From a virus (Duplodnaviria; Heunggongvirae; Uroviricota; Caudoviricetes), in IMG/VR virus record IMGVR_UViG_3300035034_002381, positions 1 to 64,000 of that record: a DNA stretch of 64,000 nucleotides; one strand, given 5' to 3'. A program made the translations under genes and the position numbers. Below the pieces are notes generated by a model, which was not told the DNA's origin, ran no database searches, and saw only the letters and a list, made by a program, of their open reading frames with translations. This document shows positions 226 to 12,508 of the stretch, in pieces. The first letter of the stretch is position 1. Every line of letters begins with the position of its first letter.

Positions 226-228
226 TTG

Positions 229-302
229 GGGCCTTTAGCTCAGTTGGTCAGAGCAGTGCGCTCATAACGCAAAGGTCACTGGTTCGAGCCCAGTATGGCC
301 CA
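229..302 (+). tRNA. tRNA with CAT anticodon (Met, fMet or Ile2 type)
   Basis: Hand-folded cloverleaf: acceptor gggcctt/atggccc, D-arm tagctcagttggtcagagc, anticodon loop ctcataa, T-arm actggttcgagcccagt. Confidence 0.75.
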
Positions 303-351
303 CAACATATTCAGATAAGGTTCTGGGTTCGAATCCCAGTCTGAATACAGC

Positions 352-434
352 ACAAAGGCGAAACAGGTATTCGTAGCGGATTGTAACCCCGCTGTCTTTT
401 GACATTGTGGGTTCGAGTCCCACTTGTGCTACAA
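352..434 (+). tRNA. Class II (long variable arm) tRNA, anticodon GTA (Tyr)
   Basis: Acceptor agcacaa/ttgtgct, anticodon loop ttgtaac, variable-arm hairpin tgtc-tttt-gaca, T-arm gtgggttcgagtcccac; 83 nt. Confidence 0.65.
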
Positions 435-439
435 ATAGT

Positions 440-510
440 CATATAGCTCAATTGGTTGGAGCATCACGCTGATAACGTGAAGGTTATAGGTTCGAGTCCT
501 ATTATGACTA
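440..510 (+). tRNA. tRNA-Ile (GAT)
   Basis: Acceptor agtcata/tatgact, D-arm tagctcaattggttggagc, anticodon stem tcacg/cgtga with loop ctgataa, T-arm ataggttcgagtcctat. Confidence 0.75.
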
Positions 511-511
511 C

Positions 512-586
512 GACGCGGATAAGGCACAGGTAGTCTTGACAGTCTGTAAAACTGTTATGTTATGGGTTCGAGTCCCATGCGCGTCA
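512..586 (+). tRNA. Class I tRNA whose anticodon loop reads ctgtaaa (GTA, Tyr-like). It duplicates the anticodon of the 352-434 gene, so its identity is uncertain
   Basis: Acceptor gacgcgg/gcgcgtc, anticodon stem acagt/actgt, T-arm atgggttcgagtcccat. Confidence 0.5.
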
Positions 587-587
587 C

Positions 588-673
588 TGAAGTGTACCCG
601 AGCGGTTTGCAGGGACCAGACTGATATTCTGGGAGTATTTTACTCAACGTGGGTTCGAATCCCATCACTTCAA
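588..673 (+). tRNA. Class II tRNA (Ser/Leu-type body: 3-bp D-stem, long variable hairpin gagta-ttt-tactc). Its anticodon loop reads ctgatat, so the anticodon is uncertain
   Basis: Acceptor tgaagtg/cacttca, anticodon stem ccaga/tctgg, T-arm gtgggttcgaatcccat; 86 nt. Confidence 0.5.
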
Positions 674-680
674 CCATATC

Positions 681-752
681 GCGGGGTGCCTGGAGAGGTT
701 CCAGATCGGGCTCATAACTCGAATTAACGTGGGTTCGACTCCCACTCCCGCA
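681..752 (+). tRNA. tRNA with CAT anticodon (second Met/Ile2-type gene)
   Basis: Acceptor gcggggt/ctcccgc, D-arm ctggagaggttccag, anticodon loop ctcataa, T-arm gtgggttcgactcccac. Confidence 0.6.
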
Positions 753-755
753 ACT

Positions 756-828
756 AGGATAGTAGCTTAGTGGCAAAAGCACAACTTTTACATGGTTGAT
801 ATCGTGGGTTCGAGTCCCATCTATCCTA
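756..828 (+). tRNA. tRNA-Val (TAC)
   Basis: Acceptor aggatag/ctatcct, D-arm tagcttagtggcaaaagc, anticodon loop tttacat, T-arm gtgggttcgagtcccat. Confidence 0.75.
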
Positions 829-867
829 CAACATGGGGGAAGACAAAGGTAAATTTATTGAAGATTT

Positions 868-940
868 GGGGCTGTAGCAAAGTTGGTCTATGCGGTGGAT
901 TGAAGATCCATGGATGTCGGTTCGATCCCGACCGGTCTCA
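868..940 (+). tRNA. tRNA-Phe (GAA)
   Basis: Acceptor ggggctg/cggtctc (three G-U pairs), anticodon stem gtgga/tccat with loop ttgaaga, T-arm gtcggttcgatcccgac. Confidence 0.6.
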
Positions 941-1020
941 CAAGATTAAAAAATAGAAATCATGAAAAAAACATTAGATTATCTTTAAAACCTAAAGATA
1001 TGAGCAATGGCATTGAACAT

Positions 1021-1094
1021 GGTGTACATAGCTTAGTGGTAGAGCATCGTCTTGTGGTGGCGAGGGGCGTGAGTTCGAATCTCATTGTACACCC
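1021..1094 (+). tRNA. tRNA-His (GTG) with the extra 5' G(-1) pair
   Basis: 8-bp acceptor ggtgtaca/tgtacacc, anticodon loop ttgtggt, T-arm gtgagttcgaatctcat. Confidence 0.75.
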
Positions 1095-1200
1095 ACTTTG
1101 GTCATTTTTGAATTTTGGATAAAAATTGAAAATAACTAAAACTTTCTACATTTAGTATAATATAACCTTGGAAAATTAATAACTTAATCTAAACAAATCT

Positions 1201-2661
1201 ATGGTATTATTACAAATTATTGGAGTACTTGCAATTATTTTCGGTATTATTATGATGTTTTTACATCCTATTGCCAAACGAAAAGAACAGAAAATAATTG
1301 ACGAAAAACAAGCTGCCGAGGAGGCAAGAGAAAAAGGTCAATCATATAGACCTGATTTAAGATCATTAAGTAAACCTAACGCGTTTTCTTTATTATTTAC
1401 TAAAAGTAAATCCTGGTTAGTAATGGGATTAGGTTTAGTAGCAATACTAATTCAAGGATTATTCTTTTATAATCCTGCAGGGACTGCAACGGCAGTCCAA
1501 TATATTTGGGGTGGGGATGATCCTGTTACAACACAAGGGATCAAATTAAAATTGTATGGTAAAACGATACCCATCTCATTTGAGATAGCCATGCAGGATA
1601 TTATTGGTGAAAGCGAAGAATATGAAGAAGGAATTTATTATCGAAAAGGCCAACGAAGAGAATTTGCTGATGCGATTAAAGCAGATATTGCAGCATCTTT
1701 AATTGTTTCTGTTGATTACGCTAATGATTCTCTATTCTTGGATATGGCTGATAAAAATAGATCCGAGAAAAAATTGGTTTATGCTCGTATTTATCCAGTT
1801 TATGATCAAGCATTAAAGAATACTTGCAAGCTTATGGACGCCCAAGATTATATTTCCGGTGCATCCTCTCAGTTTGACTATTACTTGAAAGATCAAATGG
1901 AGAACGGTATGTATTTAACTGAGGAAGTTTATGAAGATGTTAAAACTATGCCTATGACTTTGGGTGACTCTCTATCAAGAACAGTTGCTGCGGGTGTGAT
2001 TAATGACGATAAACGTGAGAAGAAATATCGTATTCGTAAAGATCATAATGGTGAACCGATACGAGATGCATCTAACTCATTAAAGAGATATGGTTTAACT
2101 GTGCAACAAGCTGCTGTAACGAATATTGATTGGGAAGAATCCTTTGATGCTCGACTGCAACTACAAAAAGAACAAGTTGCACAAACTCAAATTGAGAAAC
2201 AAGAGGCGGAAAAGGAATACTATGCAACACAGAAAACTATTGCAAAGGGTGAAAGAGAAAAGGCTGAAGTGCGAGTAACATTGGAAAAGGCGCAGTTACA
2301 ACAAACGATTGCGGCGGAAACAAAAGCTAAATCTGCAAAATACAAAGAGCAGGAAGAGATTAATTTACTTGCTGCGGCTAAAAAGGAAGCTGAAAGAATT
2401 CGTGTGACTGCTGATGCTGATGCATATGAAATTATGAAAAAAGTTCAGGTAGGTATTACTCCCGAAACTGAGCTACAAATGAGATTGGATGCTGGAATTG
2501 CAGAAAAAGCGGCAATTGCTGGACCCACAGGTCTAAAACTACCTGATAATTTGACAATCATGACTATGCCAGGAAACGGAAAATCATCTGATGCTGGAAT
2601 TCTTGAATCAATTATCGGAGCCGAAATCTTAAAAGGTAACGGAAACATTAAAACAAAGTAA
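1201..2661 (+). CDS. SPFH / band-7 (flotillin-like) membrane protein
   Basis: N-terminal TM helix (LLQIIGVLAIIFGIIMMFL) and a C-terminal A/E/K-rich flotillin-type coiled coil (EKQEAEKEYYATQKTIAKGEREKAEVRVTLEKAQLQQTIAAETKAK...AKKEAERIRVTADADAYEIMKK). Confidence 0.6.
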   Translation: MVLLQIIGVLAIIFGIIMMFLHPIAKRKEQKIIDEKQAAEEAREKGQSYRPDLRSLSKPNAFSLLFTKSKSWLVMGLGLVAILIQGLFFYNPAGTATAVQYIWGGDDPVTTQGIKLKLYGKTIPISFEIAMQDIIGESEEYEEGIYYRKGQRREFADAIKADIAASLIVSVDYANDSLFLDMADKNRSEKKLVYARIYPVYDQALKNTCKLMDAQDYISGASSQFDYYLKDQMENGMYLTEEVYEDVKTMPMTLGDSLSRTVAAGVINDDKREKKYRIRKDHNGEPIRDASNSLKRYGLTVQQAAVTNIDWEESFDARLQLQKEQVAQTQIEKQEAEKEYYATQKTIAKGEREKAEVRVTLEKAQLQQTIAAETKAKSAKYKEQEEINLLAAAKKEAERIRVTADADAYEIMKKVQVGITPETELQMRLDAGIAEKAAIAGPTGLKLPDNLTIMTMPGNGKSSDAGILESIIGAEILKGNGNIKTK

Positions 2662-2714
2662 AACTTTTTACTGTAAAAGGTATATAAATAATCAAATAAC
2701 AAAAACAAACCAAA

Positions 2715-3176
2715 ATGGTAGATTTCAACACAATCACAGAGAAAAACGAATCTGAAGCAAAAGCAAAATTCAGAGAAAATGGTACCGGAGTTAAAATGGG
2801 AACATTTGCTTCTGGTGACGAAAGCAAATGGGAAGATCTAATTAACACAGGTCTTTTCAGTAATCAAGCTATCAAAAACAGAATGCTTGACGTTGCACGC
2901 AGAATTAACACTATGTGTAATGACGAACTTTTAGGTAATCTTGACGTGGCTTTTACTGTTACTGATGCTCGTGATAATAAGGTGGAATTTACCTACATGG
3001 ATATTTATACTTTTTTACGAGCGGCATACCGTTACAGAAGTGAAACTAAGAATTATAGAGAAATGAAAGCTAGAAAAGCTGAACTTGAAAAATTCACTGA
3101 AGAAACTAAGACCGTAAAAGAAAAACGTGCTGAGGCACTCAAGGAACTTAAAGAACTTGAAAAGTCTCTTGCATAA
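2715..3176 (+). CDS. Hypothetical protein with a coiled-coil C-terminus
   Basis: 153-aa ORF with an upstream TAAAACTTT...TATATAA promoter-like motif. Confidence 0.5.
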   Translation: MVDFNTITEKNESEAKAKFRENGTGVKMGTFASGDESKWEDLINTGLFSNQAIKNRMLDVARRINTMCNDELLGNLDVAFTVTDARDNKVEFTYMDIYTFLRAAYRYRSETKNYREMKARKAELEKFTEETKTVKEKRAEALKELKELEKSLA

Positions 3177-3360
3177 AAGTTTCTGTCTCTGGGAGACCTA
3201 ACACTGATGATGACAAGCGTCTTGAAAACCTATTTAATCCATAAACTTGGGAAGAAAATGAGAGTGAGTAACTCGAATGAATCGAATGTATGATTCAAAA
3301 GGTATTGGTAGGTTAATTCTTATCAATACCTCTAAAATTCTTCTTAGAATCCATAAAACT

Positions 3361-3425
3361 TAGCTCATTGGTTGGGCATTTGTATAAGAACAAAAGGAGC
3401 GGTTCAATTCCGTAGACTAGAAGAA
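3361..3425 (+). ncRNA. Degenerate tRNA-like element (D-arm-like tagctcattggttgggc, AT-rich anticodon-like hairpin, T-arm-like gcggttcaattccgt)
   Basis: Hand-folded. It lacks a clean acceptor stem and is preceded by a CTTAGAATCC motif. Confidence 0.3.
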
Positions 3426-3430
3426 TTTAA

Positions 3431-3560
3431 TTGCCGGGTTAGTGTAAGGGTCAACACACGTAAAGTAAACATAGTGAACTTTACGAATCACTTAGAATAA
3501 CTAACTATACAATCCATATGGAGGACGGATAACTGGTTCGAGTCCAGTGCCTGGCACAAA
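3431..3560 (+). ncRNA. tRNA-like module of about 130 nt and a candidate Y-RNA-like RNA. It has acceptor-like ends gccggg/cctggc and a D-arm-like gtgt-aagggtca-acac. A 7-bp stem cgtaaag/ctttacg with a 13-nt loop sits in the anticodon position. A 47-nt insert precedes the T-arm ctggttcgagtccag
   Basis: Hand-folded. It is too long for a tRNA and lies 1 kb upstream of the Ro60 ortholog on the same strand. Confidence 0.4.
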
Positions 3561-3584
3561 TTAAATTGCAGAGTGGTGTAGTGG

Positions 3585-3650
3585 CAGCACACGTAAACGC
3601 CGATTAGTGAAGCATTTACGTTACACTAAAAAATTGGCAAATCTCGTTCA
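3585..3650 (+). ncRNA. Second, related tRNA-like half-module (gcagagt, D-arm-like gtgt-agtggcag-cacac, 7-bp stem acgtaaa/tttacgt with a 17-nt loop). No T-arm follows
   Basis: Shares the D-arm and cgtaaa-stem architecture of the 3431-3560 module. Confidence 0.3.
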
Positions 3651-3789
3651 AAAGAAATTTTCAAATGTAACAACAGAAATTGAAGATGTTGATGAATGGG
3701 TATATTTATATGTAAGAATTTAAAACTTTTTTCAAACTAAAGAATATAAAGAACAATAATACCAATAAAAATTCGACTTAGAATACCTA

Positions 3790-3880
3790 AAACTAAAGTT
3801 TAAATTAGCTCATTGAGCATATTTTTTTTATAAATACGGTCTAGGTTAATCCCTAGAAATTCAAACGTTTAGTCGAATTT
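3790..3880 (+). ncRNA. Degenerate tRNA-like element (acceptor-like gtttaaat/attcaaac, D-arm-like tagctcattgagca, A/T-only anticodon-like hairpin, T-arm-like tctaggttaatccctaga)
   Basis: Hand-folded; preceded by a CTTAGAATACCTAAAAC motif. Confidence 0.3.
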
Positions 3881-3901
3881 TTATTGGTTTTTTAAAATAT
3901 T

Positions 3902-3974
3902 GCGGGGTGGACTGGAGTTGGATCCAGCTTGGTCTCATAAGCCAAATCACGGGAGTTCGAATCTCTCCCCCGCT
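3902..3974 (+). tRNA. tRNA with CAT anticodon (third Met/fMet/Ile2-type gene)
   Basis: Acceptor gcgggg/ccccgc, D-arm ctggagttggatccag, anticodon stem ttggt/gccaa with loop ctcataa, T-arm gggagttcgaatctctc. Confidence 0.65.
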
Positions 3975-4280
3975 ACTTGTTAATAGGCATTTTATCAGTA
4001 ACACTGGAAGTTTTGGCCGAATAAATTAAAAAGTAAAATGTGTGTTCGTGTGTTAGTAAAGAGCTGCACGAATTAAATTTAATAAGTTCTGACTAGTGGT
4101 TTCGGTTTAATAGGGAAAGATACTTACCACTGAAAAAACTAAAATGTATACCCTGTAGATTTTCAATATTTATCTAACTAAATATTGCGTGTTAGAAAGT
4201 TCTAGATTAACTGTGCACAGGTTATTTAGTTCTTATAAATTTTAGAATGCACTTAACAATGTAGCGTTAATCTAAAAAAT

Positions 4281-4353
4281 GCCTCGGTAACTCAGTTGGT
4301 TAGAGTATCTGCTCGACATGCAGAAAGCCACAGGTTCGAATCCTGTTCGGGGT
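4281..4353 (+). tRNA. tRNA-like gene with a G-U-rich acceptor (gcctcgg/tcggggt) and anticodon loop tcgacat (GAC, Val-like; position 33 is C). Its backbone is paralogous to the 10905-10978 gene
   Basis: Canonical D-arm actcagttggttagagt and T-arm acaggttcgaatcctgt. Confidence 0.5.
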
Positions 4354-4528
4354 ACTTATTCTACTTAGAATACTTAAACTTTATAAATTGGTTCGATTCC
4401 AATTTTTATTGGTCTTTTTCTGTCAATTAAGTATCAAATAAATTTTTAATATATTGATTGATTTGAATATATTAAACAACCTCTCTTAGAAAATCTAAGT
4501 TAGAGAAGTTAAATCATCAAAAACAAAA

Positions 4529-6472
4529 ATGATGTCTACAAAAACAAAATCTTTATCAAAAGAAAGAGTTGCCTCTGTTTCAGGAGATAAACCAAGACTC
4601 CCAAGAACTCTTGAAACTCTTCAAGGTTTAAGAACAGCTCAAGGATTATCTGACGCGCAAATTGCGAATATGTTAGATAACGCATTATCAGAAACTTCAA
4701 GTAACCATATTATATATGTTCTTGAAAGATTAATGTTACACATTGGTGATGTGAGTCGACAACACAATATGTTGAAAGAATTGGGAATTAATTCTAAATC
4801 TGGTGGCGCACAAGAACGTGGGGTATTCCGATCTATTTTACGATGGTGGGAAAAAACTTTGCCTGAATCATTTGCAGAAAATCTTCGAGTATTCGCTGAA
4901 TTCTCAGTTTTGGAAAACTTGATGTTTTATGAACTTAAAACTGAAAGAGCAACTGGAAAATTAATTGGAAAGGAAATTTTGTTTCCTATGCCAAGTAAAG
5001 TACATGAATTTCTAGCGAACGAAATTCACAAAAATAGAAATGTGAATCTTATTGCTAAGCATTTACCAAAATATGACACTGGTAAAAGTCGAACCACTAA
5101 GAAAACCATGCATATTAAAGACGGTAAGGATAGTTTCATGTGGAAACTTCCTGAAGGTAAAGCTTGGGTTAAATTAAATGGTGATCTAATCGAAGGAGAA
5201 TCTGTTAAGATTACTCAAGGTGATGTAGTTTCATATCCTCGTGATAAATCTTCACATGTTTTAGAAAAACAAAGATTCGTTAATTCTTGGATTTCTAGTT
5301 TCTGTAAAGTTATGGGATGGTCAATTACTGATTATAACAATTTCCGTAAACAACAAAACACACCGGAACAAAAATTCTCAAGTAAACGTGTTTTAAACAT
5401 GCCGAAATCAGATTTCTGGAAAATGCTTGATGGTTTGACTTCTGGTCAAAGATACAGAGTTTCTAGAATGTTAGATTTCAATGCGGAAAAGTGGGGAGAA
5501 TTACCGAAATGGTATGATTTGTGGGAAGGTAACCAAGAAAAAGTAGCCGATAAACTTCGACAAGCTGCAGCTGATGGTGATACTGAAGCAACAGAAAAAT
5601 TGAAGAAAGAATTCAAGGTTAAATCTACTGGAAAAAACACTGTTGATTTATTGAAAGATATGTTAACAGGTAATCATGACGATAGATTCATTAACAACAC
5701 TTATCAATCTATGATTGAGAATATGGATATTGTTGCGAATGTTTTTCCAGTAATTGATGGTTCCGCATCTATGGATTGCCAAATTGGTGGAGGATGGAGT
5801 CCTCGAAGTTCTCGAAGTTCTACGGATAGACAACTTTCAAATAGAGCTGTCGCATATGCTATGGCAATTGCATTTTCTACTAGAAACCCAGTACCAGGAT
5901 TCCGTAACACGTTCGGATGGTTCTCCAGAAACTTTCACATTGTTGGAAAATCTAAGTATGTGAACAATGCACCTAATCAATACGTTGATTCTGGAAGTTA
6001 TACTAAAAAGGTTAATGAGTTCAATGTTTTATCTGAAACTAATACTTTCACTGAAAACTACTCAAACTTGAGAAAATCTGATCCAGGAGAAATATCATCT
6101 ACAAATATGGGTTCTGTGATTACTCACTTCACAAATTTAGTAGAAACTGGTAAATTTCATGTTGAGGATCTTCCATCTGCGTTACTTTTTATCACAGATA
6201 ATGAAAACAACACAGGAATTAGTCCGAAGGAAGCGTTGGCAATAGCTAACAAAATTGGATGGTCTCCATTGGTTATTTTCTGGGGGTTAACTAAAGTTCC
6301 AAGCAACATGATGAATCAGTATAAGGGAATTCCTAACTGCTTACTTGTTGGAGGATTTAATGAATCAGTACTTTCACAAGTACTTAGGGGTATTAAATCT
6401 GGTTCAGTTGATCCAGAGGATGAAATCTGGAGTATTGTCGAAAATAAAAGATATGCAGTAATTACTGAGTAA
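4529..6472 (+). CDS. rsr: Ro60 (Rsr) ortholog: an N-terminal helical TROVE-like region plus a C-terminal von Willebrand factor A domain with a MIDAS motif
   Basis: MIDAS DGSASM (human Ro60 has DVSASM), followed by NRAVAYAMAIAFSTRN (Ro60 ASTVAAAMCMVVTRTE). Then LLFITDNENNTG (Ro60 FIVFTDNETFAG) and NCLLVGGFNESVLSQVLRGI (Ro60 MLDMCGFDTGALDVIRNF). The 647-aa size is about 400 aa of helical domain plus about 240 aa of vWA. Confidence 0.75.
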   Translation: MMSTKTKSLSKERVASVSGDKPRLPRTLETLQGLRTAQGLSDAQIANMLDNALSETSSNHIIYVLERLMLHIGDVSRQHNMLKELGINSKSGGAQERGVFRSILRWWEKTLPESFAENLRVFAEFSVLENLMFYELKTERATGKLIGKEILFPMPSKVHEFLANEIHKNRNVNLIAKHLPKYDTGKSRTTKKTMHIKDGKDSFMWKLPEGKAWVKLNGDLIEGESVKITQGDVVSYPRDKSSHVLEKQRFVNSWISSFCKVMGWSITDYNNFRKQQNTPEQKFSSKRVLNMPKSDFWKMLDGLTSGQRYRVSRMLDFNAEKWGELPKWYDLWEGNQEKVADKLRQAAADGDTEATEKLKKEFKVKSTGKNTVDLLKDMLTGNHDDRFINNTYQSMIENMDIVANVFPVIDGSASMDCQIGGGWSPRSSRSSTDRQLSNRAVAYAMAIAFSTRNPVPGFRNTFGWFSRNFHIVGKSKYVNNAPNQYVDSGSYTKKVNEFNVLSETNTFTENYSNLRKSDPGEISSTNMGSVITHFTNLVETGKFHVEDLPSALLFITDNENNTGISPKEALAIANKIGWSPLVIFWGLTKVPSNMMNQYKGIPNCLLVGGFNESVLSQVLRGIKSGSVDPEDEIWSIVENKRYAVITE

Positions 6473-6491
6473 TCTTAATTTTCAAATTACT

Positions 6492-6527
6492 AAGGAGAGG
6501 CATTTTTGCCTCTCCTTTTTTTATGTT
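6492..6527 (+). terminator. Rho-independent terminator (aaggagaggca-ttttt-gcctctcctt plus TTTTTTT)
   Basis: Perfect 11-bp stem followed by a T-run, immediately after the Ro60 ORF. Confidence 0.8.
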
Positions 6528-6576
6528 TAAAACTATATCAATCTTAGATATATAATACAAATAAATTAAATTAAAT

Positions 6577-7140
6577 ATGAAAAATGTAAAAAACTTTCGT
6601 GAGTTTCTGAACGAGAATCGAGTCGAAAAGAGATTAGCTAGTCTGGACGCAGAATATACTATTGACAAAAAGTTGTGTAAACAATTAATGGATGTGGGAG
6701 AGCAAATAGATTATATATACAATAATTTAGATTTGCCACACTCTGACTTTGCCACTTCTAATTTTATACCACCCGAAATTGAAAACGATGATAAAACAGC
6801 GAGTGATTGGGTAGAATCTGAGAAGGCTCTTATAAGAAGTGAACTAAAATCTAAAGAATCTGAATATAAAAAAATTCTTAGAAAAATACAATCTAAACAT
6901 TCGTATATTAATGATGTAATTGAATATCTTAATCAAACTAATTTAGGTTTTACTTTAGAAAATACATTTATTGATAAAATAAACAGAAGAAATGATATCA
7001 TAAATACTGTTGTAATAAAAAGTTGGTATGGGTATGCTAAAGCTTCAAGAAAAGAATTAGAAAGATATAAAATAACACCTGAGCAACTTGCAGGTACTAT
7101 ATTATCAATGCGAGCAGTCGCTGATGAACTAACATATTAG
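6577..7140 (+). CDS. Hypothetical protein, member of the MKN-K-F-EF N-terminal paralog family
   Basis: N-terminus MKNVKNFREFLNE; promoter-like motif TTTAAAACTATATCAATCTTAGATATATAA upstream. Confidence 0.5.
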   Translation: MKNVKNFREFLNENRVEKRLASLDAEYTIDKKLCKQLMDVGEQIDYIYNNLDLPHSDFATSNFIPPEIENDDKTASDWVESEKALIRSELKSKESEYKKILRKIQSKHSYINDVIEYLNQTNLGFTLENTFIDKINRRNDIINTVVIKSWYGYAKASRKELERYKITPEQLAGTILSMRAVADELTY

Positions 7141-7224
7141 TAATAAAGTACTAAGTGATATTTGTAAACAATTAAAAAATAAGAATATCGAATGTGGCTT
7201 TGATGATGCATTCGACCCTAGTTA

Positions 7225-7425
7225 ATGGAAAGTTTTAAAAGTATACTCGAATCTAAAGATTCTGATAAACTCGCAAAAGAGATCAATAATGCAATCATTA
7301 AAATTGATGATTCTATGTCATACAAAGATTTTGCAGCTGCAGTTATCAAAATAATGAAAGAAGAATACGGAGAACACCTATATACAGAATTCTTAGGAAT
7401 TTTACAAAAAAATCTAAAGAAATGA
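7225..7425 (+). CDS. Small hypothetical protein, paralog of the 47731-47925 ORF
   Basis: N-terminus MESFKSILESKDSDKL versus MKSFKKVLENKEADKL. Confidence 0.4.
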   Translation: MESFKSILESKDSDKLAKEINNAIIKIDDSMSYKDFAAAVIKIMKEEYGEHLYTEFLGILQKNLKK

Positions 7426-7601
7426 AGACTTTTAAAGAATTTATAAACGAATCGGAATATATGGTGGTGAATGGAAAGAAAACGCCGAGATAACAGCTAG
7501 ACAATTATCTTCTGGGTTGGTTATTAGCATTGAACCTACAAAAATAAAAGTATTAGTTAGTACATCATCAGAACTAGATATCGATGTTTTAATGTCTAAC
7601 A

Positions 7602-7790
7602 ATGATAAAATTGAATATAGAAGTTATAGACGACTCGCCGTATACAAAACCAGGATCTACACAAAGTTTTATTAGAATAAAACTGAATGGAAAAACTATA
7701 TATGAAGATAAAGGAGCTAATTATGCCGACGCACCAAGTGACGAGATTATTAGAGCTTATGAAGAGGTGTATAAAATTAGATCCAAATAG
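7602..7790 (+). CDS. Small hypothetical protein
   Basis: 62-aa ORF from the six-frame track. Confidence 0.3.
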   Translation: MIKLNIEVIDDSPYTKPGSTQSFIRIKLNGKTIYEDKGANYADAPSDEIIRAYEEVYKIRSK

Positions 7791-8028
7791 GGAATACGTT
7801 TGCTTCTATACACAATAATTCAAAATATAAGACTTGAAAATGAAAAGATTTTTTAGAGTTGCTAGTATTACATCATTAATTGTTCTGTGTCTATTCACAT
7901 TTTTAATGCACGCGTTTCCATGGGAATGGTCAACTGATATTAGATTATATTGCATATTCACAATGGTTTCTTCATCGATTGTCGCGTATTTCGTAAGCCG
8001 TTAATAAAATTTAACATATAGATAACAG

Positions 8029-8058
8029 TGGGACTTTTATAGTCCCACTTTTTTTGTT
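8029..8058 (+). terminator. Rho-independent terminator (agtgggact-tttat-agtcccact plus TTTTTTT)
   Basis: Perfect 9-bp hairpin plus T-run. Confidence 0.75.
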
Positions 8059-8273
8059 TATATTTATACTGAATTTAAAAACTCAAAATAAATGTCAAGA
8101 GAAAATATGGATTATATGGGCGATGCAGTCTACGCAGAATACACGGGATGGTCAATTGATTTACGAGTCAATGATCATCGGAATCCTGTCGCTGTCGTTT
8201 TAGAAGAACTAGTCTTACAAAATTTAGTCGATTTTGCTAGACGAAAAGGTCTTAAAATCAAATAAATTATGAA

Positions 8274-8636
8274 ATGAAAGTAATTTATTCTGCAGTTTTT
8301 GTTGATAAGTCTACCCTTATAAAAAAATTTAAACCGGTATTTGATAACATTCATGCTCATCACATGACTATTGAATTTAGACCAGAATCAACAGATAATC
8401 TGGATATTGACAAAAATTACAAATTGAAAATTATCGGTAGATTAATTACAGACAAAGTTGATGTTCTTCTTGTTGATGATGGAGGCATCAGTAAAAATGA
8501 ATTCCCACACATTACAATTTCTATAGCTGATGGTGTTAGGCCTTTCGAAAGTAATACCGAAATCAAAAATAATTATTCCAAAATAACTAAACTTCGTGGA
8601 GAAATAACAGGCAAAATCGGAGTTTTCACCGCATAA
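8274..8636 (+). CDS. Small 2H phosphoesterase superfamily protein (LigT / 2',3'-cyclic phosphodiesterase or Acb1-like)
   Basis: Two H-x-T-x motifs, HHMTIEF and PHITISI, about 70 residues apart in a 120-aa protein. Confidence 0.5.
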   Translation: MKVIYSAVFVDKSTLIKKFKPVFDNIHAHHMTIEFRPESTDNLDIDKNYKLKIIGRLITDKVDVLLVDDGGISKNEFPHITISIADGVRPFESNTEIKNNYSKITKLRGEITGKIGVFTA

Positions 8637-8645
8637 ATCTTAACT

Positions 8646-8870
8646 ATGAAAAAGGTAACATTTCTAATTTTAATATTGTTCAACATTAATTTATGGGCAC
8701 AAGAACAACCAGATACAGTTTATGTTCTGAAAAGTTTTACAGTCAAAGGTGTGAGAGCTGATCCTAAAACACCGATCACACAAAAAACAATAGACAAGAA
8801 ATTTATTGAACGCAATTATTTTGGTCAAGAAATTCCTATTCTTTTAAATACCACACCATCAATAAATTAG
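8646..8870 (+). CDS. Small secreted protein
   Basis: Signal peptide MKKVTFLILILFNINLWAQ. Confidence 0.45.
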   Translation: MKKVTFLILILFNINLWAQEQPDTVYVLKSFTVKGVRADPKTPITQKTIDKKFIERNYFGQEIPILLNTTPSIN

Positions 8871-9116
8871 GTATGGAAAAATCTCAAGACTTTGAACCAA
8901 CCGAACCAGAAGAAATGTATTAAAATAATTGAAAATAACTCTTCCAGATTAAAACTTTTTGATTACTTTTGTATATATACTGTATATTTAAACAAACAAT
9001 AATGAAAACACAAATCAACATAACTACCAGTTATTCTTTAAGAAGCTTATGTACGTCGCTGAGACTATATGAGACAGGGTATCTATGTTGATCAAACATA
9101 TTTTTGATTACAAACT

Positions 9117-9150
9117 AAACCCTGTCTATTTAATTAGACAGGGTTTTTTT
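9117..9150 (+). terminator. Rho-independent terminator (aaccctgtcta-tttaatt-agacagggtt plus TTTTTTT)
   Basis: Hairpin plus T-run preceding the third tRNA cluster. Confidence 0.75.
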
Positions 9151-9155
9151 ATTTG

Positions 9156-9245
9156 GAAGATAAAGCAGCTGCATTGGAGCGGCGACTAGCCTTGAAAACT
9201 AGGTCTCGGAGAAATCTGGGTGGGGTTCGAGTCCTCTGTCTTCCT
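9156..9245 (+). tRNA. Class II tRNA-Ser (TGA)
   Basis: Acceptor ggaagat/gtcttcc, anticodon loop cttgaaa, long variable arm, T-loop ttcgagt; 90 nt. Confidence 0.55.
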
Positions 9246-9276
9246 CAAAGTTTTAGTTCATTGACATATTAATATT

Positions 9277-9362
9277 AGAGGATGCGGTAATGGTGGTTAT
9301 TACAGTATCTTGGAAAGGTACCGATCGTTTATTCGGTCAGGGTTCGACTCCCTCATCCTCTG
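9277..9362 (+). tRNA. Class II tRNA-Ser (GGA)
   Basis: Acceptor agaggatg/catcctct, anticodon stem gtatc/ggtac with loop ttggaaa, variable arm ccgatcgtttattcggtc, T-arm agggttcgactccct. Confidence 0.65.
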
Positions 9363-9493
9363 CTATGTTCTTCTTAGAATAACTAATTTATGTAAATGTG
9401 AGTTCGAATCTCATCAAATGCTTTTAGCATCTGTAGCCAAATGGTTAGGCAATATACTTGAAATATATAACAAACGATTAGAAGAACAACATG

Positions 9494-9566
9494 CTTCCAT
9501 AGTATAAAGGTTCATTATTCCTGTTTTGTAATCAGGCGATATCGGTTCGATTCCGATTGGGAGCTC
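9494..9566 (+). tRNA. tRNA-Thr (TGT)
   Basis: Acceptor gcttcca/tgggagc, anticodon loop tttgtaa, T-arm atcggttcgattccgat. Confidence 0.6.
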
Positions 9567-9714
9567 AATGAATATGATGTTTATTTAGATCCTAAAAATG
9601 ATTATCTTATTGGTATAGATAGTAAAAAAATTGAAAAGGTCGAAGAATTGTATAATGTGCGTAATAATAGACAAGGATAATTTATCTTGGAATGATATTC
9701 AAAATAAAATAAAT

Positions 9715-9795
9715 GTTTCAGTGGTGGAATGGTAGACACGTCGGTCTTAGGAACCGATGCCGAAAGGCGTGAGAGTTCGAGTCTCTCCTGGAATA
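9715..9795 (+). tRNA. Class II tRNA-Leu (TAG), canonical architecture
   Basis: D-arm gtg-gaatggtaga-cac, anticodon stem tcggt/accga with loop cttagga, variable arm gccgaaaggc, T-arm gagagttcgagtctctc. Confidence 0.65.
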
Positions 9796-9796
9796 C

Positions 9797-9876
9797 ACTC
9801 TGGTGGATTAGGTAAATTGGTACAGCTAAACGGCTTAGACCCGTATCCCTTCTGGGTTCGAATCCCAGTCAGAGTA
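9797..9876 (+). tRNA. Atypical 80-nt tRNA-like gene, family member 1. The anticodon-like hairpin is acgg-cttagac-ccgt (TAG). There is no variable arm, and a 7-nt insertion separates the acceptor from the 3-bp D-stem
   Basis: Acceptor actctgg/tcagagt, conserved block tggattaggtaaattggtacagctaa, T-arm ctgggttcgaatcccag. Confidence 0.5.
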
Positions 9877-9881
9877 CAAAT

Positions 9882-9961
9882 GCTCCTGTGGTTTATGTAA
9901 ATTGGCACAGCTAAGCGGCTTAAACCCGCAACCTTTATGGGTTCGAGTCCCATCAGGAGTA
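9882..9961 (+). tRNA. Atypical 80-nt tRNA-like gene, family member 2; anticodon-like hairpin gcgg-cttaaac-ccgc (TAA)
   Basis: Acceptor gctcctg/caggagt, conserved block tggtttatgtaaattggcacagctaa, T-arm atgggttcgagtcccat. Confidence 0.5.
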
Positions 9962-10056
9962 CAAAAGTTTATCAACGTCTTGAGTCAAGTTGGATGATGA
10001 CAAAAAGGCTAACGGCAGAAGTGAATCCATCGCACTGTGTTACATAAACTTTATCT

Positions 10057-10129
10057 GGCCAGGATTCTCAATTGGACGGGACTCTGTCTTCTAAACAGAT
10101 GTTTGTGGGTTCGAATCCCATCTTGGTCT
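10057..10129 (+). tRNA. tRNA-Arg (TCT)
   Basis: Acceptor ggccagg/cttggtc, anticodon stem tctgt/acaga with loop cttctaa, T-arm gtgggttcgaatcccat. Confidence 0.6.
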
Positions 10130-10135
10130 CTAAAC

Positions 10136-10209
10136 GCAGGTATACCTAAGTGGTTTAAAGGAGCGGATTGCAAACCCGTTATTCATTGGTTCGAATCCAA
10201 TTACCTGCT
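10136..10209 (+). tRNA. tRNA-Cys (GCA)
   Basis: Perfect acceptor gcaggta/tacctgc, anticodon loop ttgcaaa, T-arm attggttcgaatccaat. Confidence 0.7.
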
Positions 10210-10214
10210 CACTT

Positions 10215-10297
10215 GGAAGGTAACTTGATGGTGATAGAGGTAGTTTGCTAAACTACTGGCCGTTTACTCGGTCGAGGTTCGATTCCTCTGCCTTCCG
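10215..10297 (+). tRNA. Class II tRNA-Ser (GCT)
   Basis: Acceptor ggaaggt/gccttcc, anticodon stem gtagt/actac with loop ttgctaa, variable arm ggccgtttactcggtc, T-arm gaggttcgattcctc. Confidence 0.7.
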
Positions 10298-10301
10298 CTA
10301 T

Positions 10302-10379
10302 GCTCCTGTGGATTATGTAAAAGCACAGCTAACACCTTGAGGAGGTGATCCTTTGTGGGTTCGAGTCCCGCCAGGAGTA
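10302..10379 (+). tRNA. Atypical tRNA-like gene, family member 3; anticodon-like hairpin cacc-ttgagga-ggtg (GAG)
   Basis: Acceptor gctcctg/caggagt, conserved block tggattatgtaaaagcacagctaa, T-arm gtgggttcgagtcccgc. Confidence 0.5.
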
Positions 10380-10404
10380 CAAAGAAGCAAAGAGTTAGTT
10401 AGGT

Positions 10405-10479
10405 TAGACTGGCTTGTTATGTGGTGAAATTGGTAAACGCGAGCGCTTTGGTGCTTAGTAACCTTAACACTTCTTATTT
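10405..10479 (+). ncRNA. Partial tRNA-like element: a Leu-type D-arm gtg-gtgaaattggtaaac-gc plus a hairpin, with no T-arm. It abuts the next tRNA
   Basis: Shares its D-arm sequence with the 10788-10899 element. Confidence 0.3.
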
Positions 10480-10553
10480 GCTGAGTTAGTATAGTCGGTT
10501 TATTACGATACCCTGGTACGGTATTAACACCAGTTCGATTCTGGTACTCAGCT
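10480..10553 (+). tRNA. tRNA-Thr (GGT)
   Basis: Perfect acceptor gctgagt/actcagc, anticodon stem atacc/ggtat with loop ctggtac, T-arm accagttcgattctggt. Confidence 0.7.
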
Positions 10554-10565
10554 CATGAAAAATAT

Positions 10566-10645
10566 GCCTCTGTGGATTATGTAAATTGGCACAGCTAACG
10601 GTTTCAAACTCCGATCTTTTATGGGTTCGAATCCCATCAGAGGCA
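10566..10645 (+). tRNA. Atypical tRNA-like gene, family member 4; anticodon-like hairpin cgg(t)-ttcaaac-(t)ccg (CAA)
   Basis: Perfect acceptor gcctctg/cagaggc, conserved block tggattatgtaaattggcacagctaa, T-arm atgggttcgaatcccat. Confidence 0.5.
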
Positions 10646-10661
10646 CAAGTAGGAGAAATTT

Positions 10662-10746
10662 AGTCCAGTGGCGAAACAGGTATACGCACAAGATTTAAGC
10701 TCTTGCTTCCATTGAGGAATTGCGGGTTCGATTCCCGCCTGGATTA
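10662..10746 (+). tRNA. Class II tRNA-Leu (TAA), canonical architecture
   Basis: Acceptor agtccag/ctggatt, D-arm gcg-aaacaggtata-cgc, anticodon stem caaga/tcttg with loop tttaagc, variable arm ttccattgaggaa, T-arm gcgggttcgattcccgc. Confidence 0.65.
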
Positions 10747-10787
10747 CTAAGTTAGTACGGGTTCGATCCCCGTCTTGGCTACTAAAT

Positions 10788-10899
10788 TTGACCGTGGTGA
10801 AATTGGTAAACACACCCTTAAATCAGGGAGTATGAGAATATGTACTTGAAGCTGACGCAGAACATCATACATATGTAGGTTCGAATCCTATCGGTCGAA
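10788..10899 (+). ncRNA. 112-nt tRNA-like RNA with a roughly 45-nt extra stem-loop (atatgta...tacatat) inserted before the T-arm
   Basis: Acceptor ttgaccg/cggtcga, Leu-type D-arm gtg-aaattggtaaa-cac, anticodon-like ccc-ttaaatca-ggg, T-arm gtaggttcgaatcctat. Confidence 0.4.
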
Positions 10900-10904
10900 C
10901 AAAT

Positions 10905-10978
<74 letters not shown>

Positions 10979-11325
10979 CTATCTAAAACTTTATTCAATT
11001 TCCATAATATAATGTGTAACTAAACTTTATAGAAATGGAAAAAATACTAATGTCTGAAATTTTGACTTATGACAACTTCGACGACGGTTTACCTGAAGAA
11101 TATGAATTTGTCGATTCTGAACAAACATATTTTGATGGTGAAAAAGGCTTTGTTAATATCGAAGCTATTATCAGAAGAGAATCAGACTCACAATTTTTAA
11201 AGTAAAATACACCGATTATGGAAAAGGTGAAAATGATCTTATGGAAAGTGTGGGCGAACCTGTAACTCAAAAATCCAAAACAATTTTCTACTATGTAACT
11301 CAAAAATCCAAAACAATTTTCTACT

Positions 11326-11598
11326 ATGAATAGTATGACCTTTTTATTAGGCATTACGTATGTTATCGGATACTTTTTAAGTATCATAATCCTAAAAAGA
11401 TTTCACCATATTTTGGATATTCCAGATTATAATTCATATCCAAAATATAATGAATATTCAAGCAATGCACAAGCATACACAATGTGGTCAATTGTATGGC
11501 CGTTATTTTGGGTCTTAAAAATCATAGTTCTTCTTTTCGAAAAACTTATTAATTTAACTAAATATATACTAAATGGAAACTCAAGCTCAAGAAAGTAA
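11326..11598 (+). CDS. Small membrane protein with two hydrophobic segments
   Basis: LLGITYVIGYFLSIIIL and MWSIVWPLFWVLKIIVLLF. Confidence 0.4.
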   Translation: MNSMTFLLGITYVIGYFLSIIILKRFHHILDIPDYNSYPKYNEYSSNAQAYTMWSIVWPLFWVLKIIVLLFEKLINLTKYILNGNSSSRK

Positions 11599-12508
11599 TA
11601 GAATAATCAAAGAAATTCATTCTTCTTTTTATTCAATGGATCAAGAAACTGATACATATCTTCAACGCCAAATTCAAGCTGCGTATGACGAATCTATCAA
11701 AGGCTCTTTAGAGAAGACTATCAAAAAATATGGTTTTAATAATGCCAAAAACTCTGACATTTTTGATAAAGCATTACTTGAAAGTCGGGAAGAATTAAAT
11801 GATGTCTTAAACGAATGTTCAGTGACATATCCAGGTAAAAAGTTTATTACTGATGAACAAATAGCACAGCTTTGTATCAAATATAATTTATTACTAACAA
11901 CACCAGATAGATTTATTGGTGAAATACCAGAACGTAATATCCAAGAGTTGAACGACTTTAATCCAAAAGGTAGCGAAAAAAAGGCGTTTTTTGATCCCAA
12001 AGTTTTTTATAAATTATATAACTTTATAAGAGAATATGAAGAGAAGCATTATTATATGAATAAAAATCTAAAAAAATCTATTGCAATGATTTATCGATCA
12101 TTTATGAATCATAGTAACATGGATTCAATACTTTTTCCAGATAATAATAAATATATTGTTCATGGTGTCAATGAAGATAAATCAATCACCACAACTGAAT
12201 TAGGTATTCAAACAGCAAAGAAAATATCTGAAGAATTATCTAAGAAAGAAAGAAATTCTGTACCTATTTTACCGTTGTTTTCACAAACTATGATAGCAGC
12301 GACATCTGATTTACTTGATATTCCTAAACTAGGATTGATCAAGAATAAAAGAAATGAACTTGTTTTAGGTCTTAATTCAAAACAATTTAAAGAAAATTTT
12401 CTACCTGATCCAATTGTACTACATAAAGTAAAACGTGGTGCTATTATTATAACTGCTTGGGGCTTGGAATCTCAAGATGAACTAGTATTCAATCCTATTA
12501 TTAATTGA
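11573..12508 (+). CDS. Hypothetical protein
   Basis: 311-aa ORF. Confidence 0.45.
   Translation: METQAQESNRIIKEIHSSFYSMDQETDTYLQRQIQAAYDESIKGSLEKTIKKYGFNNAKNSDIFDKALLESREELNDVLNECSVTYPGKKFITDEQIAQLCIKYNLLLTTPDRFIGEIPERNIQELNDFNPKGSEKKAFFDPKVFYKLYNFIREYEEKHYYMNKNLKKSIAMIYRSFMNHSNMDSILFPDNNKYIVHGVNEDKSITTTELGIQTAKKISEELSKKERNSVPILPLFSQTMIAATSDLLDIPKLGLIKNKRNELVLGLNSKQFKENFLPDPIVLHKVKRGAIIITAWGLESQDELVFNPIIN

What the first reader, a model, noticed from the sequence alone, without database searches (positions are those of the whole stretch)
3338..9392. Recurrent CTTAGAATA(N3-5)TAAAAC motif inside the tRNA regions
Five copies occur in the tRNA regions: 3341 cttcttagaatccataaaac, 3491 cacttagaataactaac, 3776 gacttagaatacctaaaac, 4363 tacttagaatacttaaac, 9368 tcttcttagaataactaattt. 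Each lies just upstream of a tRNA or tRNA-like element. This looks like a dedicated promoter or processing signal for the stable-RNA loci, distinct from the protein-gene motif.
Basis: seen in the sequence. Interest (0 to 1): 0.4.

Follow-up and report, generated by a model that had tools for sequence, protein, structure and literature searches.

The report
Ro60-linked tag on phage tRNA mimics
The repeated CTTAGAAT motif is real, but it is most likely not a tRNA promoter: it is a conserved tag on a stem that closes small tRNA-mimicking RNAs, including circularly permuted tRNA-like genes, encoded next to a divergent phage Ro60-type RNA-binding protein, so the locus looks like an unusual, expanded Y-RNA/Ro60 system.

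Summary
CTTAGAATNNNTAA occurs 5 times, all on the + strand, against 0.16 expected.

The motif is not a general tRNA signal. Only about 9 of 186 tRNAs in related phage loci have it upstream.

The bases just 5' of TAGAAT pair with a unit-specific partner that follows the cargo. This holds for 58 of 156 motif sites against 4% of control sites, with 41 different helix sequences. The motif therefore sits inside an RNA stem, as ..ACU[U]AG followed by an A-rich single strand.

The cargos are tRNA-like. They include normal-order units (window A, C), an insertion inside an otherwise intact tRNA-like gene (B), and circularly permuted complete tRNA-like genes (E, plus 7 relatives).

Best reading: these are Y-RNA-like tRNA mimics, and the motif takes the place of the known Ro60-binding GNCGAA/CGAA tag. 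This is a new variant of a known kind. Binding is inferred, not shown. A processing or splice-like role is not excluded. A promoter role is disfavoured.

The parts
3335..3428 (+). Unit A. Closing helix AAATTCTTCT (3335-3344) / AGAAGAATTT (3419-3428), motif at 3343-3350. The cargo is a normal-order tRNA-like domain: D-arm GCTC..GGGC, a 5-bp 'anticodon' stem with a 6-nt loop, and T-arm CGGTTCAATTCCG.
   Evidence: The 6-nt 'anticodon' loop is like that of D. radiodurans Yrn1 (PMC4201824).
3433..3556 (+). Unit B. A tRNA-like gene with an intact acceptor stem (GCCGGGT/GCCTGGC), D-arm and T-arm. It carries an inserted module: hairpin CGTAAAGT..ACTTTACG, AGTGA/TCACT pairing, the motif at 3491-3498, then an anticodon-arm-like hairpin.
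   Evidence: The same design is seen in L010, L008 and L037.
3578..3637 (+). Remnant F. This is the 5' part of a B-type interrupted tRNA-like gene. In the 99%-identical relative L010 it continues with CTTAGAATAACTAAAAAAG, a T-arm and the 3' acceptor strand. The window has a deletion between two CTAAAAAA repeats.
   Evidence: one search compared.
3761..3888 (+). Unit C. An 18-bp closing helix ACCAATAAAAATTCGACT (3761-3778) / AGTCGAATTTTTATTGGT (3871-3888), motif at 3777-3784. The cargo is a normal-order tRNA-like domain (D-arm GCTCATTGAGC, T-arm-like CTAGGTTAATCCCTAG).
   Evidence: MFE -34 kcal/mol, z = -5.0, 0 of 200 shuffles as good.
4356..4403 (+). Unit D. It directly follows tRNA-Val. It consists of TTATTCTACT, the motif at 4364-4371, and T-arm ATTGGTTCGATTCCAAT (4387-4403). 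The rest of a T-arm/acceptor minihelix unit is lost through a 39-nt deletion relative to L010.
   Evidence: Comparable minihelix units occur in L022 and L025.
4478..4510 (+). Mini-unit in the leader of the Ro60-like gene: AACCTCTCT / TAGAAAATCTAAGTT / AGAGAAGTT (9-bp helix with one mismatch), with the degenerate motif CTTAGAAA at 4485.
   Evidence: Analogous leader units enclose the start codon in L033 and L034.
4529..6472 (+). Gene for a 647-aa divergent Ro60/Rsr-like protein: a helical ring domain plus a C-terminal vWA domain with the MIDAS motif D410-G-S412-x-S414.
9366..9488 (+). Unit E, a circularly permuted complete tRNA-like gene. Order: closing strand TGTTCTTCT; motif 9373-9380; T-arm GTGAG TTCGAAT CTCAT; 3' acceptor strand CAAATGC; loop TTTTA; 5' acceptor strand GCATCTG; D-arm; anticodon arm ATATA CTTGAAA TATAT (UGA); closing strand AGAAGAACA.
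   Evidence: All five helices are intact. Compensatory changes are seen in 16 of the 22 pairs RNAalifold predicted (closing, T, D and anticodon helices) across 8 homologous units; the acceptor pairs, which MAFFT misaligned, co-vary by hand parsing. ARAGORN calls it tRNA-Ser(tga) once it is un-permuted in silico. The Rfam YrlA model touches the T-arm to D-arm part at only 16 bits.

Best explanation
The motif is an RNA-level element, not a DNA promoter. It marks the 5' strand of a stem formed by the two ends of a small-RNA unit: 5'-X..ACU[U]AG-AAUAAAAA..cargo..(U/C)U-AGU..X'-3'. X and X' are unit-specific and complementary, and one U is probably bulged.

The cargo is a tRNA mimic. It can be a normal-order tRNA-like domain, a T-arm/acceptor minihelix, a pair of D-arm-like and anticodon-arm-like hairpins, or a complete circularly permuted tRNA. 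The same module can also be closed by a loop and inserted into an otherwise intact tRNA-like gene.

These units cluster around, and always just upstream of, a gene for a divergent Ro60/Rsr-type protein. I therefore read them as Y-RNA-like RNAs. In this reading the motif is the counterpart of the Ro60-contacting GGUCCGA / GNCGAAN0-1G / CGAA tag on the 5' strand of known Y RNAs: the site where the phage Ro60-like ring docks, while the tRNA-like cargo engages tRNA-binding partners. A copy in the protein's own mRNA leader suggests autoregulation.

Shown: the motif, the stem covariation, the permuted tRNA folds, the Ro60 fold and the gene linkage. Inferred: that the protein binds the motif, and what the RNP does.
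For: Motif is real: 5 copies against 0.16 expected. In about 30 non-redundant related loci, CTTAGAA occurs 194 times on the + strand and 32 times on the - strand.

Stem: 58 of 156 motif sites have a partner of at least 8 bp (up to 2 G-U pairs allowed) within 200 nt downstream, for the bases that end in the motif's CT. Only 176 of 4317 control CT sites do (Fisher p = 2e-36). The helices use 41 different 8-mers. The base before X' is T in 54 of 58 units. The next base pairs with the motif's G in 41 of 58.

Permuted units: 8 units have closing, T, acceptor, D and anticodon helices all intact, with compensatory changes. All 8 are called tRNAs once un-permuted in silico.

Protein: Ro60 fold.

Linkage: the nearest motif lies 16-140 nt upstream of the gene in most of the roughly 25 non-redundant loci with enough upstream sequence (298 nt in L023; none in L038). 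Among 120 IMG/VR hits to the 14-mer CACTTAGAATAAAA, the only one with both the helix and a motif cluster lies on the contig that carries the Ro60-like gene.

Precedent: YrlA RNAs have the order T-arm, acceptor stem-loop, D-arm inside a terminal stem, carry a 5' GNCGAAN0-1G motif, and are encoded next to rsr, also in phages. Yrn1 has the other orientation, with a 6-nt 'anticodon' loop (PMC4201824). Thermus phage phiLo has two Y-like RNAs with a CGAA motif upstream of its Ro60 gene (PMC12135203).
Against: - No binding data exist.
- The motif (ACUUAGAAU) differs from GNCGAAN0-1G and shares only the GAA core.
- The Rfam YrlA model scores unit E at 16 bits against a gathering score of 69.
- Pfam does not detect a TROVE domain.
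- Unlike known Y RNAs, several cargos keep a canonical 7-nt anticodon loop. Some encode CCA after the discriminator (L001, L002, and the L022 minihelix), which hints at real tRNA-type end processing or function.
- L001 carries the motif and a permuted unit, but the 6.7 kb held shows no Ro60-like gene, and the rest of that contig was not seen.
- All other loci were chosen through the protein, so the linkage statistics are partly by construction.
Confidence: 0.55

Rival explanations
1. RNA processing or splice-like signal. The helix plus UAGAAU is recognised by an endonuclease, possibly working with a ligase. This would excise the module from interrupted tRNA genes and join the ends of permuted ones. 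It would work like the archaeal/algal bulge-helix-bulge (BHB) system, or like RNase III processing stems, and would yield functional one-piece or two-piece tRNAs.
For: The same module occurs in all three topologies that BHB motifs occupy in archaea and algae:
- around whole tRNA-like genes (window A, C; L008);
- inside tRNA genes with intact 7/7 acceptor stems, including the anticodon loop of L037 452-567, which still scores 54 bits as a tRNA, and D-loops in L008;
- at the ends of permuted genes.

L026 3711 and L037 452 look like the permuted and interrupted forms of one tRNA-Phe(GAA) design. CCA is encoded in some acceptor loops. RNA-repair-type genes are present: a 2H phosphoesterase-like ORF at 8274-8636, a kinase+phosphatase ORF at 35015-35989, and a Tpt1-like gene in L004 (weak hit).
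Against: No 3-4-3 bulge-helix-bulge geometry is seen; the bulge is one-sided. No splicing endonuclease or RNA ligase was identified in the window ORFs scanned. Removing the module would not leave clean canonical junctions in the cases inspected. Most units carry small non-tRNA cargos (29 of 58), for which splicing makes no sense.
Confidence: 0.2
2. Promoter. TAGAAT would serve as a -10-like element for the host RNA polymerase or a phage sigma factor, driving each small-RNA unit and the Ro60-like gene.
For: TAGAAT is one mismatch from TATAAT. The motif is strictly co-oriented with the genes. It lies 7-30 nt upstream of RNA 5' ends and sometimes of start codons (L033, L034, L008 9963). Several L008 units are followed by terminator-like hairpins. 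One relative encodes a sigma-70-family protein nearby (L006).
Against: The bases directly upstream of TAGAAT co-vary with a strand downstream of the cargo. That only makes sense if they are transcribed. No -35 partner is found at 16-18 nt. There is no conserved upstream block other than the co-varying helix. The motif sits inside genes with intact acceptor stems. 175 of 186 tRNAs lack it. Most protein genes in the window carry a different motif, TAAAACTT.
Confidence: 0.1
3. No function. The shared 14-mer is a relic of serial duplication of one tRNA-like segment in a decaying tRNA region.
For: The region holds tRNA fragments (303-348, 10748-10775). Units D and F in the window are deletion remnants.
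Against: The motif, its strand and its helix context are conserved in phages whose Ro60-like proteins are only 39-65% identical. The flanking helix sequences have diverged while staying complementary.
Confidence: 0.03

Closest known systems
Bacterial and phage Y RNAs of the YrlA type (Rfam RF02553), with Rsr/Ro60
   Same: They are encoded next to a Ro60-family gene on the same strand. The two RNA ends form a stem. A short conserved purine-rich tag ending in GAA sits on the 5' strand. The tRNA-like domain runs in the order T-arm, acceptor-like stem-loop, D-arm. In M. smegmatis YrlA the acceptor loop can be cut by RNase P and CCA is then added (PMC4201824).
   Different: The tag is ACU[U]AGAAU rather than GNCGAAN0-1G. 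The permuted units also keep a full anticodon arm with a 7-nt loop (UGA, UGU, UAA, GCA). There are up to 7 units per locus rather than 1-2. The RF02553 score is 16 bits against a gathering score of 69. The protein is not recognised by the Pfam TROVE model.
D. radiodurans Yrn1
   Same: It has a normal-order tRNA-like domain (D-like, 'anticodon' and T arms) inside a terminal Ro-binding stem, with a 5-bp 'anticodon' stem and a 6-nt loop. Window unit A matches this exactly (one search compared).
   Different: There is no sequence similarity. The motif differs. The phage units are shorter.
Thermus phage phiLo Ro60 with Yrl1/Yrl2
   Different: The phiLo RNAs carry CGAA in a stem-bulge-stem, and the paper describes no tRNA-like cargo. 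Here the cargos are tRNA mimics arranged in arrays.
Circularly permuted tRNA genes (Cyanidioschyzon merolae and other algae, Thermofilum) and permuted two-piece tmRNA genes (named from my own knowledge)
   Same: The 3' half (T-arm plus 3' acceptor strand) is encoded upstream of the 5' half. The two transcript ends pair. The acceptor ends must be freed by cleavage in the connecting loop.
   Different: No BHB motif and no splicing endonuclease were found here. The setting is a bacteriophage. Whether the products are ever joined or aminoacylated is unknown.

Membership tests
Y RNA (YrlA/Yrn1 type) | Encoded adjacent to a Ro60/Rsr gene | tested here: met
   A motif unit lies 45 nt upstream of ORF 4529-6472 and 16-140 nt upstream of its homologue in most of the roughly 25 non-redundant loci with enough upstream sequence. 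The ORF has a Ro60 fold.
Y RNA (YrlA/Yrn1 type) | 5' and 3' ends form a stem that carries the protein-binding tag on the 5' strand | tested here: met
   58 of 156 motif sites have a closing helix of at least 8 bp, against 4.1% of controls, with 41 distinct helix sequences. The window helices are 10, 18 and 9 bp long.
Y RNA (YrlA/Yrn1 type) | GNCGAAN0-1G / GGUCCGA-like Ro60-binding motif | tested here: not met
   The conserved tag is (A)CUUAGAA(U). It shares only the GAA core and the position.
Y RNA (YrlA/Yrn1 type) | tRNA-like domain with T-arm, acceptor-like stem-loop and D-arm (YrlA), or D / anticodon-like / T (Yrn1) | tested here: met
   Unit E and 7 relatives have the YrlA order. Units A and C have the Yrn1 order.
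Y RNA (YrlA/Yrn1 type) | Reaches the Rfam RF02553 gathering score | tested here: not met
   16 bits against 69 for 9397-9450. No hit on A-D at E <= 1.
Y RNA (YrlA/Yrn1 type) | Physically bound by the Ro60 protein | not testable with these tools
   Needs EMSA, RIP or a structure.
Ro60/TROVE protein (ORF 4529-6472) | Sequence match to the TROVE domain model | tested here: not met
   No Pfam family at E <= 0.01. Among 26 family members there are only weak vWA hits and one vWA_Ro60 hit at 0.0046. A PDB sequence search found nothing.
Ro60/TROVE protein (ORF 4529-6472) | Ro60 fold: helical-repeat ring plus vWA domain with MIDAS | tested here: met
Sigma-70-type promoter | -35 element 16-18 nt upstream of the -10-like hexamer | tested here: not met
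   None of the + strand motif copies in 3150-4600 is reported by the scan.
Sigma-70-type promoter | Upstream flank is not part of the transcript | tested here: not met
   The upstream flank co-varies with a downstream strand, which implies it is transcribed.
Sigma-70-type promoter | Transcription start 6-8 nt downstream | not testable with these tools
   Needs 5'-end mapping.
Permuted tRNA genes processed through BHB motifs | 3' half encoded upstream of the 5' half, with all arms intact | tested here: met
Permuted tRNA genes processed through BHB motifs | Bulge-helix-bulge (3-4-3) at the junction of leader and trailer | tested here: not met
   Only a one-sided bulge (1 or 3 nt) next to the closing helix is seen.
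Permuted tRNA genes processed through BHB motifs | Splicing endonuclease and ligase available | tested here: inconclusive
   None was found among about 35 window ORFs scanned. Small ORFs and the rest of the genome were not scanned.

The most novel reading that the evidence does not exclude
These phages carry genuinely functional split, permuted and interrupted tRNA genes. The helix plus UAGAAU module would then be a bacteriophage counterpart of the archaeal BHB motif. It would be recognised by a protein (possibly the Ro60-like ring, acting with phage RNA-repair enzymes) that cuts and joins, or clamps, tRNA halves. This would be the first protein-dependent tRNA splicing or permutation system in the bacterial virus world. 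A milder version: the array is a set of anticodon-loop decoys, presented on Ro60, against host anticodon nucleases.
Probability: 0.12. Interest if true: 0.9.

Novelty: new variant of a known kind. Interest (0 to 1): 0.6.

Why it matters
Ro60/Y-RNA particles are known from animals, some bacteria and a few phages, but their RNA partners are few and poorly understood. This work points to three things:
- A widespread family of large aquatic phages appears to carry a Ro60 relative too divergent for standard sequence models to recognise.
- That protein comes with arrays of tagged tRNA mimics, including complete circularly permuted tRNA-like genes. My two literature searches for permuted and split tRNAs in phages found no report of such genes.
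- The same tag is inserted into otherwise intact tRNA-like genes.

This offers a simple sequence handle (closing helix plus CUUAGAAU) for finding such RNAs. It also gives a testable protein-RNA pair, and a possible link between phage tRNA arsenals, RNA repair and defence against host tRNA-cleaving toxins.

Tried and rejected
- Rfam scan of 1-12000 at E <= 1: only tRNAs, plus chance YrlA hits over adjacent tRNA pairs; nothing on units A-D.
- INPHARED phage collection: no relative of the region or of the protein.
- A single-protein scan of IMG/VR found nothing. The profile scans did work.
- PDB sequence searches with the protein and with its family profile: nothing.
- Self-cleaving ribozyme cores (hammerhead, HDV-like/theta, twister), a kink-turn and an N4-type hairpin promoter were compared with the motif from memory and set aside. 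None matches the conserved bases or the long-range helix.
- TIR/MITE or attC-like DNA repeats were rejected because the inverted repeats differ from unit to unit while staying complementary.
- ARAGORN does not call the permuted units when the full closing helix is kept as a 'variable arm'. It calls all 8 after the helix is replaced by a 5-nt loop.
- The IMG/VR scan for CACTTAGAATAAAA returned mostly chance hits, for example inside coding sequence in L069.
- Literature searches for permuted or split tRNAs in phages found nothing relevant.
Full report
OBSERVATION. The window is an AT-rich (68% A+T), uncultured large phage with every long ORF but one on the + strand and more than 21 tRNA genes. 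The 8-mer alone is not enriched in the whole window (8 found, 4.9 expected). The shared 14-mer CTTAGAATNNNTAA is enriched: 5 found against 0.16 expected, and no shuffle reached 5. A sixth, degenerate copy sits at 4485. Six of the 19 + strand CTTAGAA sites fall in the 7% of the window that holds RNA genes (p = 0.002). In relatives that stretch is simply A-rich.

WHAT SURROUNDS EACH COPY. In every copy, the bases immediately 5' of TAGAAT form one strand of a helix.
- Unit A (3335-3428) and unit C (3761-3888). A 10-bp and an 18-bp helix close a normal-order tRNA-like domain. Unit C folds with z = -5.0.
- Unit B (3433-3556). This is a tRNA-like gene with a good acceptor stem, D-arm and T-arm. A module has been inserted into it: a hairpin, a short AGTGA/TCACT pairing, the motif, and then an anticodon-arm-like hairpin.
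- Unit D (4356-4403). It follows tRNA-Val and goes straight into a T-arm.
- Unit E (9366-9488). It lies between tRNA-Ser and tRNA-Thr and reads: closing strand, motif, T-arm, 3' acceptor strand, 5-nt loop, 5' acceptor strand, D-arm, anticodon arm (loop CUUGAAA), closing strand. That is a circularly permuted tRNA.

A 99%-identical relative (L010) shows that a further piece (F, 3578-3637) and unit D are deletion remnants of complete units.

COMPARATIVE EVIDENCE. The neighbouring ORF 4529-6472 (647 aa) has about 95 homologues at 38-99% identity in metagenomes. I fetched about 45 loci around them. They come from contigs of about 1-443 kb (the longer ones 40-443 kb), mostly aquatic.
- In 418 kb of non-redundant loci, CTTAGAA occurs 194 times on the gene strand and 32 times on the other strand.
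- 58 of 156 sites have a partner of at least 8 bp (up to 2 G-U pairs allowed) within 200 nt downstream for the bases ending in the motif's CT. Only 176 of 4317 control CT sites do (p = 2e-36).
- The 58 helices use 41 different 8-mers, so the pairing is kept while the sequence changes.
- The base before the 3' strand is T in 54 of 58 units. The one before that pairs with the motif's G in 41 of 58.
- Both observations fit ..ACU[U]AG paired with (U/C)U-AGU.., with one bulged U, followed by AAUAAAAA as single strand. A register with a 3-nt UAG bulge and AAU/AUU pairing is also possible.
- Cargo sizes fall into two groups, roughly 40-60 nt and roughly 90-112 nt. By class there are 29 small units (often a D-arm-like hairpin plus an anticodon-arm-like hairpin), 9 T-arm-first units, 11 normal-order units and 9 others.

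PERMUTED tRNA-LIKE GENES. Eight T-arm-first units from different phages (window E, L001, L002, L004, L006, L033, L037, L042) were compared.
- All have the closing, T, acceptor, D and anticodon helices intact.
- RNAalifold recovers four of the five helices, with compensatory changes in 16 of 22 pairs. The acceptor pairs also co-vary.
- An A.C or C.A mismatch sits at acceptor pair 5 in 5 of the 8 units.
- When the halves are rejoined in silico, ARAGORN calls all eight: Ser-UGA five times, plus Thr-UGU, Leu-UAA and Cys-GCA.
- Some units encode CCA right after the discriminator (L001, L002, and the L022 minihelix).
- In L026 the break point lies in the anticodon loop. L037 452-567 is the matching interrupted form of a tRNA-Phe-like gene.
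- L008 has six tRNA-like genes with intact acceptor pairing that carry the module, closed by a hairpin loop, in the D-loop or the anticodon/variable region.

COMPARISON WITH WHAT IS KNOWN. Bacterial and phage Y RNAs are encoded next to rsr. They carry a short GNCGAAN0-1G tag near the 5' end that resembles the Ro60-contacted GGUCCGA. They contain a tRNA-like domain in the order T-arm, acceptor stem-loop, D-arm. M. smegmatis YrlA is even cut by RNase P and receives CCA. D. radiodurans Yrn1 has the other orientation, with a 5-bp 'anticodon' stem and a 6-nt loop (PMC4201824). Thermus phage phiLo has two Y-like RNAs with a CGAA motif upstream of its Ro60 gene (PMC12135203). Window unit E matches the YrlA layout, and unit A matches the Yrn1 layout down to the 6-nt loop. 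The CUUAGAAU tag occupies the position of the Ro60-binding tag.

Membership is not complete. The motif differs. Rfam's YrlA model gives only 16 bits. The units here keep full anticodon arms, come in arrays, and also exist as insertions in tRNA-like genes. Hence the classification as a new variant of a known kind.

WHY NOT A PROMOTER.
- The flank upstream of TAGAAT co-varies with a downstream strand, so it must be in the RNA.
- There is no -35 partner.
- The motif lies inside genes with intact acceptor stems.
- 175 of 186 tRNAs in these loci lack it. Of the 11 that ARAGORN flags with a motif upstream, 8 have imperfect acceptor stems, against 26 of 175 for the rest (p = 6e-5). These look like mimics rather than working tRNAs.
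- Protein genes in the window carry another enriched motif, TAAAACTT (22 found, 9.6 expected).

A promoter role cannot be fully excluded without 5'-end mapping.

OTHER READINGS. A splice-like or processing role is the serious rival. The module occupies the same three topologies as archaeal BHB motifs: around genes, inside genes, and at the ends of permuted genes. Some acceptor loops encode CCA, and RNA-repair-type genes are present. Against it, no BHB geometry, endonuclease or ligase was found, and half of the units have small non-tRNA cargos. A pure duplication relic is contradicted by conservation across phages whose proteins share only 39-65% identity.

CAVEATS. All loci but L001 were selected through the protein, so linkage is partly by construction. 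An independent check supports it: of 120 IMG/VR hits to a 14-mer version of the motif, 4 had a closing helix (background rate), and the single one with both a helix and a motif cluster was on a contig with the Ro60-like gene. For L001, only 6.7 kb of a 51-kb contig was seen. Binding, processing and function are inferences.

Noticed in passing
window 303-348 and 10748-10775: Isolated tRNA pieces lie between complete tRNAs. One is a T-arm/acceptor minihelix (TATTCAGA..CTGGGTTCGAATCCCAG..TCTGAATA). The other is a T-arm plus 3' end that resembles tRNA-Arg(TCT). Neither carries the motif.
   Followed up: no
window 10788-10899: A 112-nt tRNA match (Rfam 35.7 bits) with an insertion of about 40 nt in the variable region. 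ARAGORN does not call it, and it has no CTTAGAAT motif.
   Followed up: no
window 18-62975 (22 sites), e.g. 1137, 8950, 10984: TAAAACTT is enriched (22 found, 9.6 expected). It sits upstream of protein genes, followed 11-14 nt later by TATAAT-like sequence.
   Followed up: partly
window 8274-8636, 33398-34009, 35015-35989: RNA-end-healing-type genes: a 2H phosphoesterase-like ORF (two HxT motifs; weak hit to the tRNA ligase CPD domain), an Rv2179c-like 3'-5' exoribonuclease, and a kinase (AAA_33/Zeta) plus NT5C-phosphatase fusion reminiscent of Pnkp. L004 2158-2610 has a weak Tpt1 (PF01885) hit.
   Followed up: partly
window 3578-3637 and 4403-4445 compared with L010 4748-5070 and 5840-5900: Relative to a 99%-identical contig, the window lacks about 290 nt between two CTAAAAAA repeats. 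This removes the motif, T-arm and 3' end of a tRNA-like gene, plus a small ORF. It also lacks 39 nt inside unit D. These are either real strain differences or assembly variants.
   Followed up: partly
L008 1475-1600, 2528-2655, 2985-3105, 3187-3310, 3514-3636, 4670-4810: Six tRNA-like genes in a 443-kb phage contig have perfectly complementary acceptor strands. Each carries a 45-75-nt insertion (a hairpin CTAGTTGG..CCAACT(T)AG followed by AAU and an A-rich stretch) in the D-loop or the anticodon/variable region. None is called by ARAGORN.
   Followed up: partly
L001 331-520: A tmRNA-like sequence (GGGCCGAAATGTTTCGACAGG.., with a reading frame ending ..ALA*) lies upstream of the motif-bearing units. 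ARAGORN does not call it. Nearby are odd tRNA-like genes with encoded GCCA ends and no normal D-arm (1043-1135, 1350-1442).
   Followed up: no
window 188-228: A strong terminator-like hairpin (AAAAATCCCTTC..GAAGGGATTTTT) ends only 5 nt before the first tRNA of the 229-1094 array. Either it is leaky, or it is a processing hairpin.
   Followed up: no
small units in L015 1137, L017 5525, L018 4222, L020 5493, L028 2176, L043 5124: A recurring unit with about 52-58 nt of cargo has a GC-rich D-arm-like hairpin plus an anticodon-arm-like hairpin. The 7-nt loops read UUU, GUU, UGU and CUU (Lys, Asn, Thr). Lys and Asn tRNAs are, from my own knowledge, targets of some anticodon nucleases.
   Followed up: no
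window 21117-22802: A large HNH/homing-endonuclease gene (phrog_3339, 7e-105) lies directly after the major head protein gene. The tRNA regions of relatives are studded with HNH, GIY-YIG and NUMOD3 genes.
   Followed up: no
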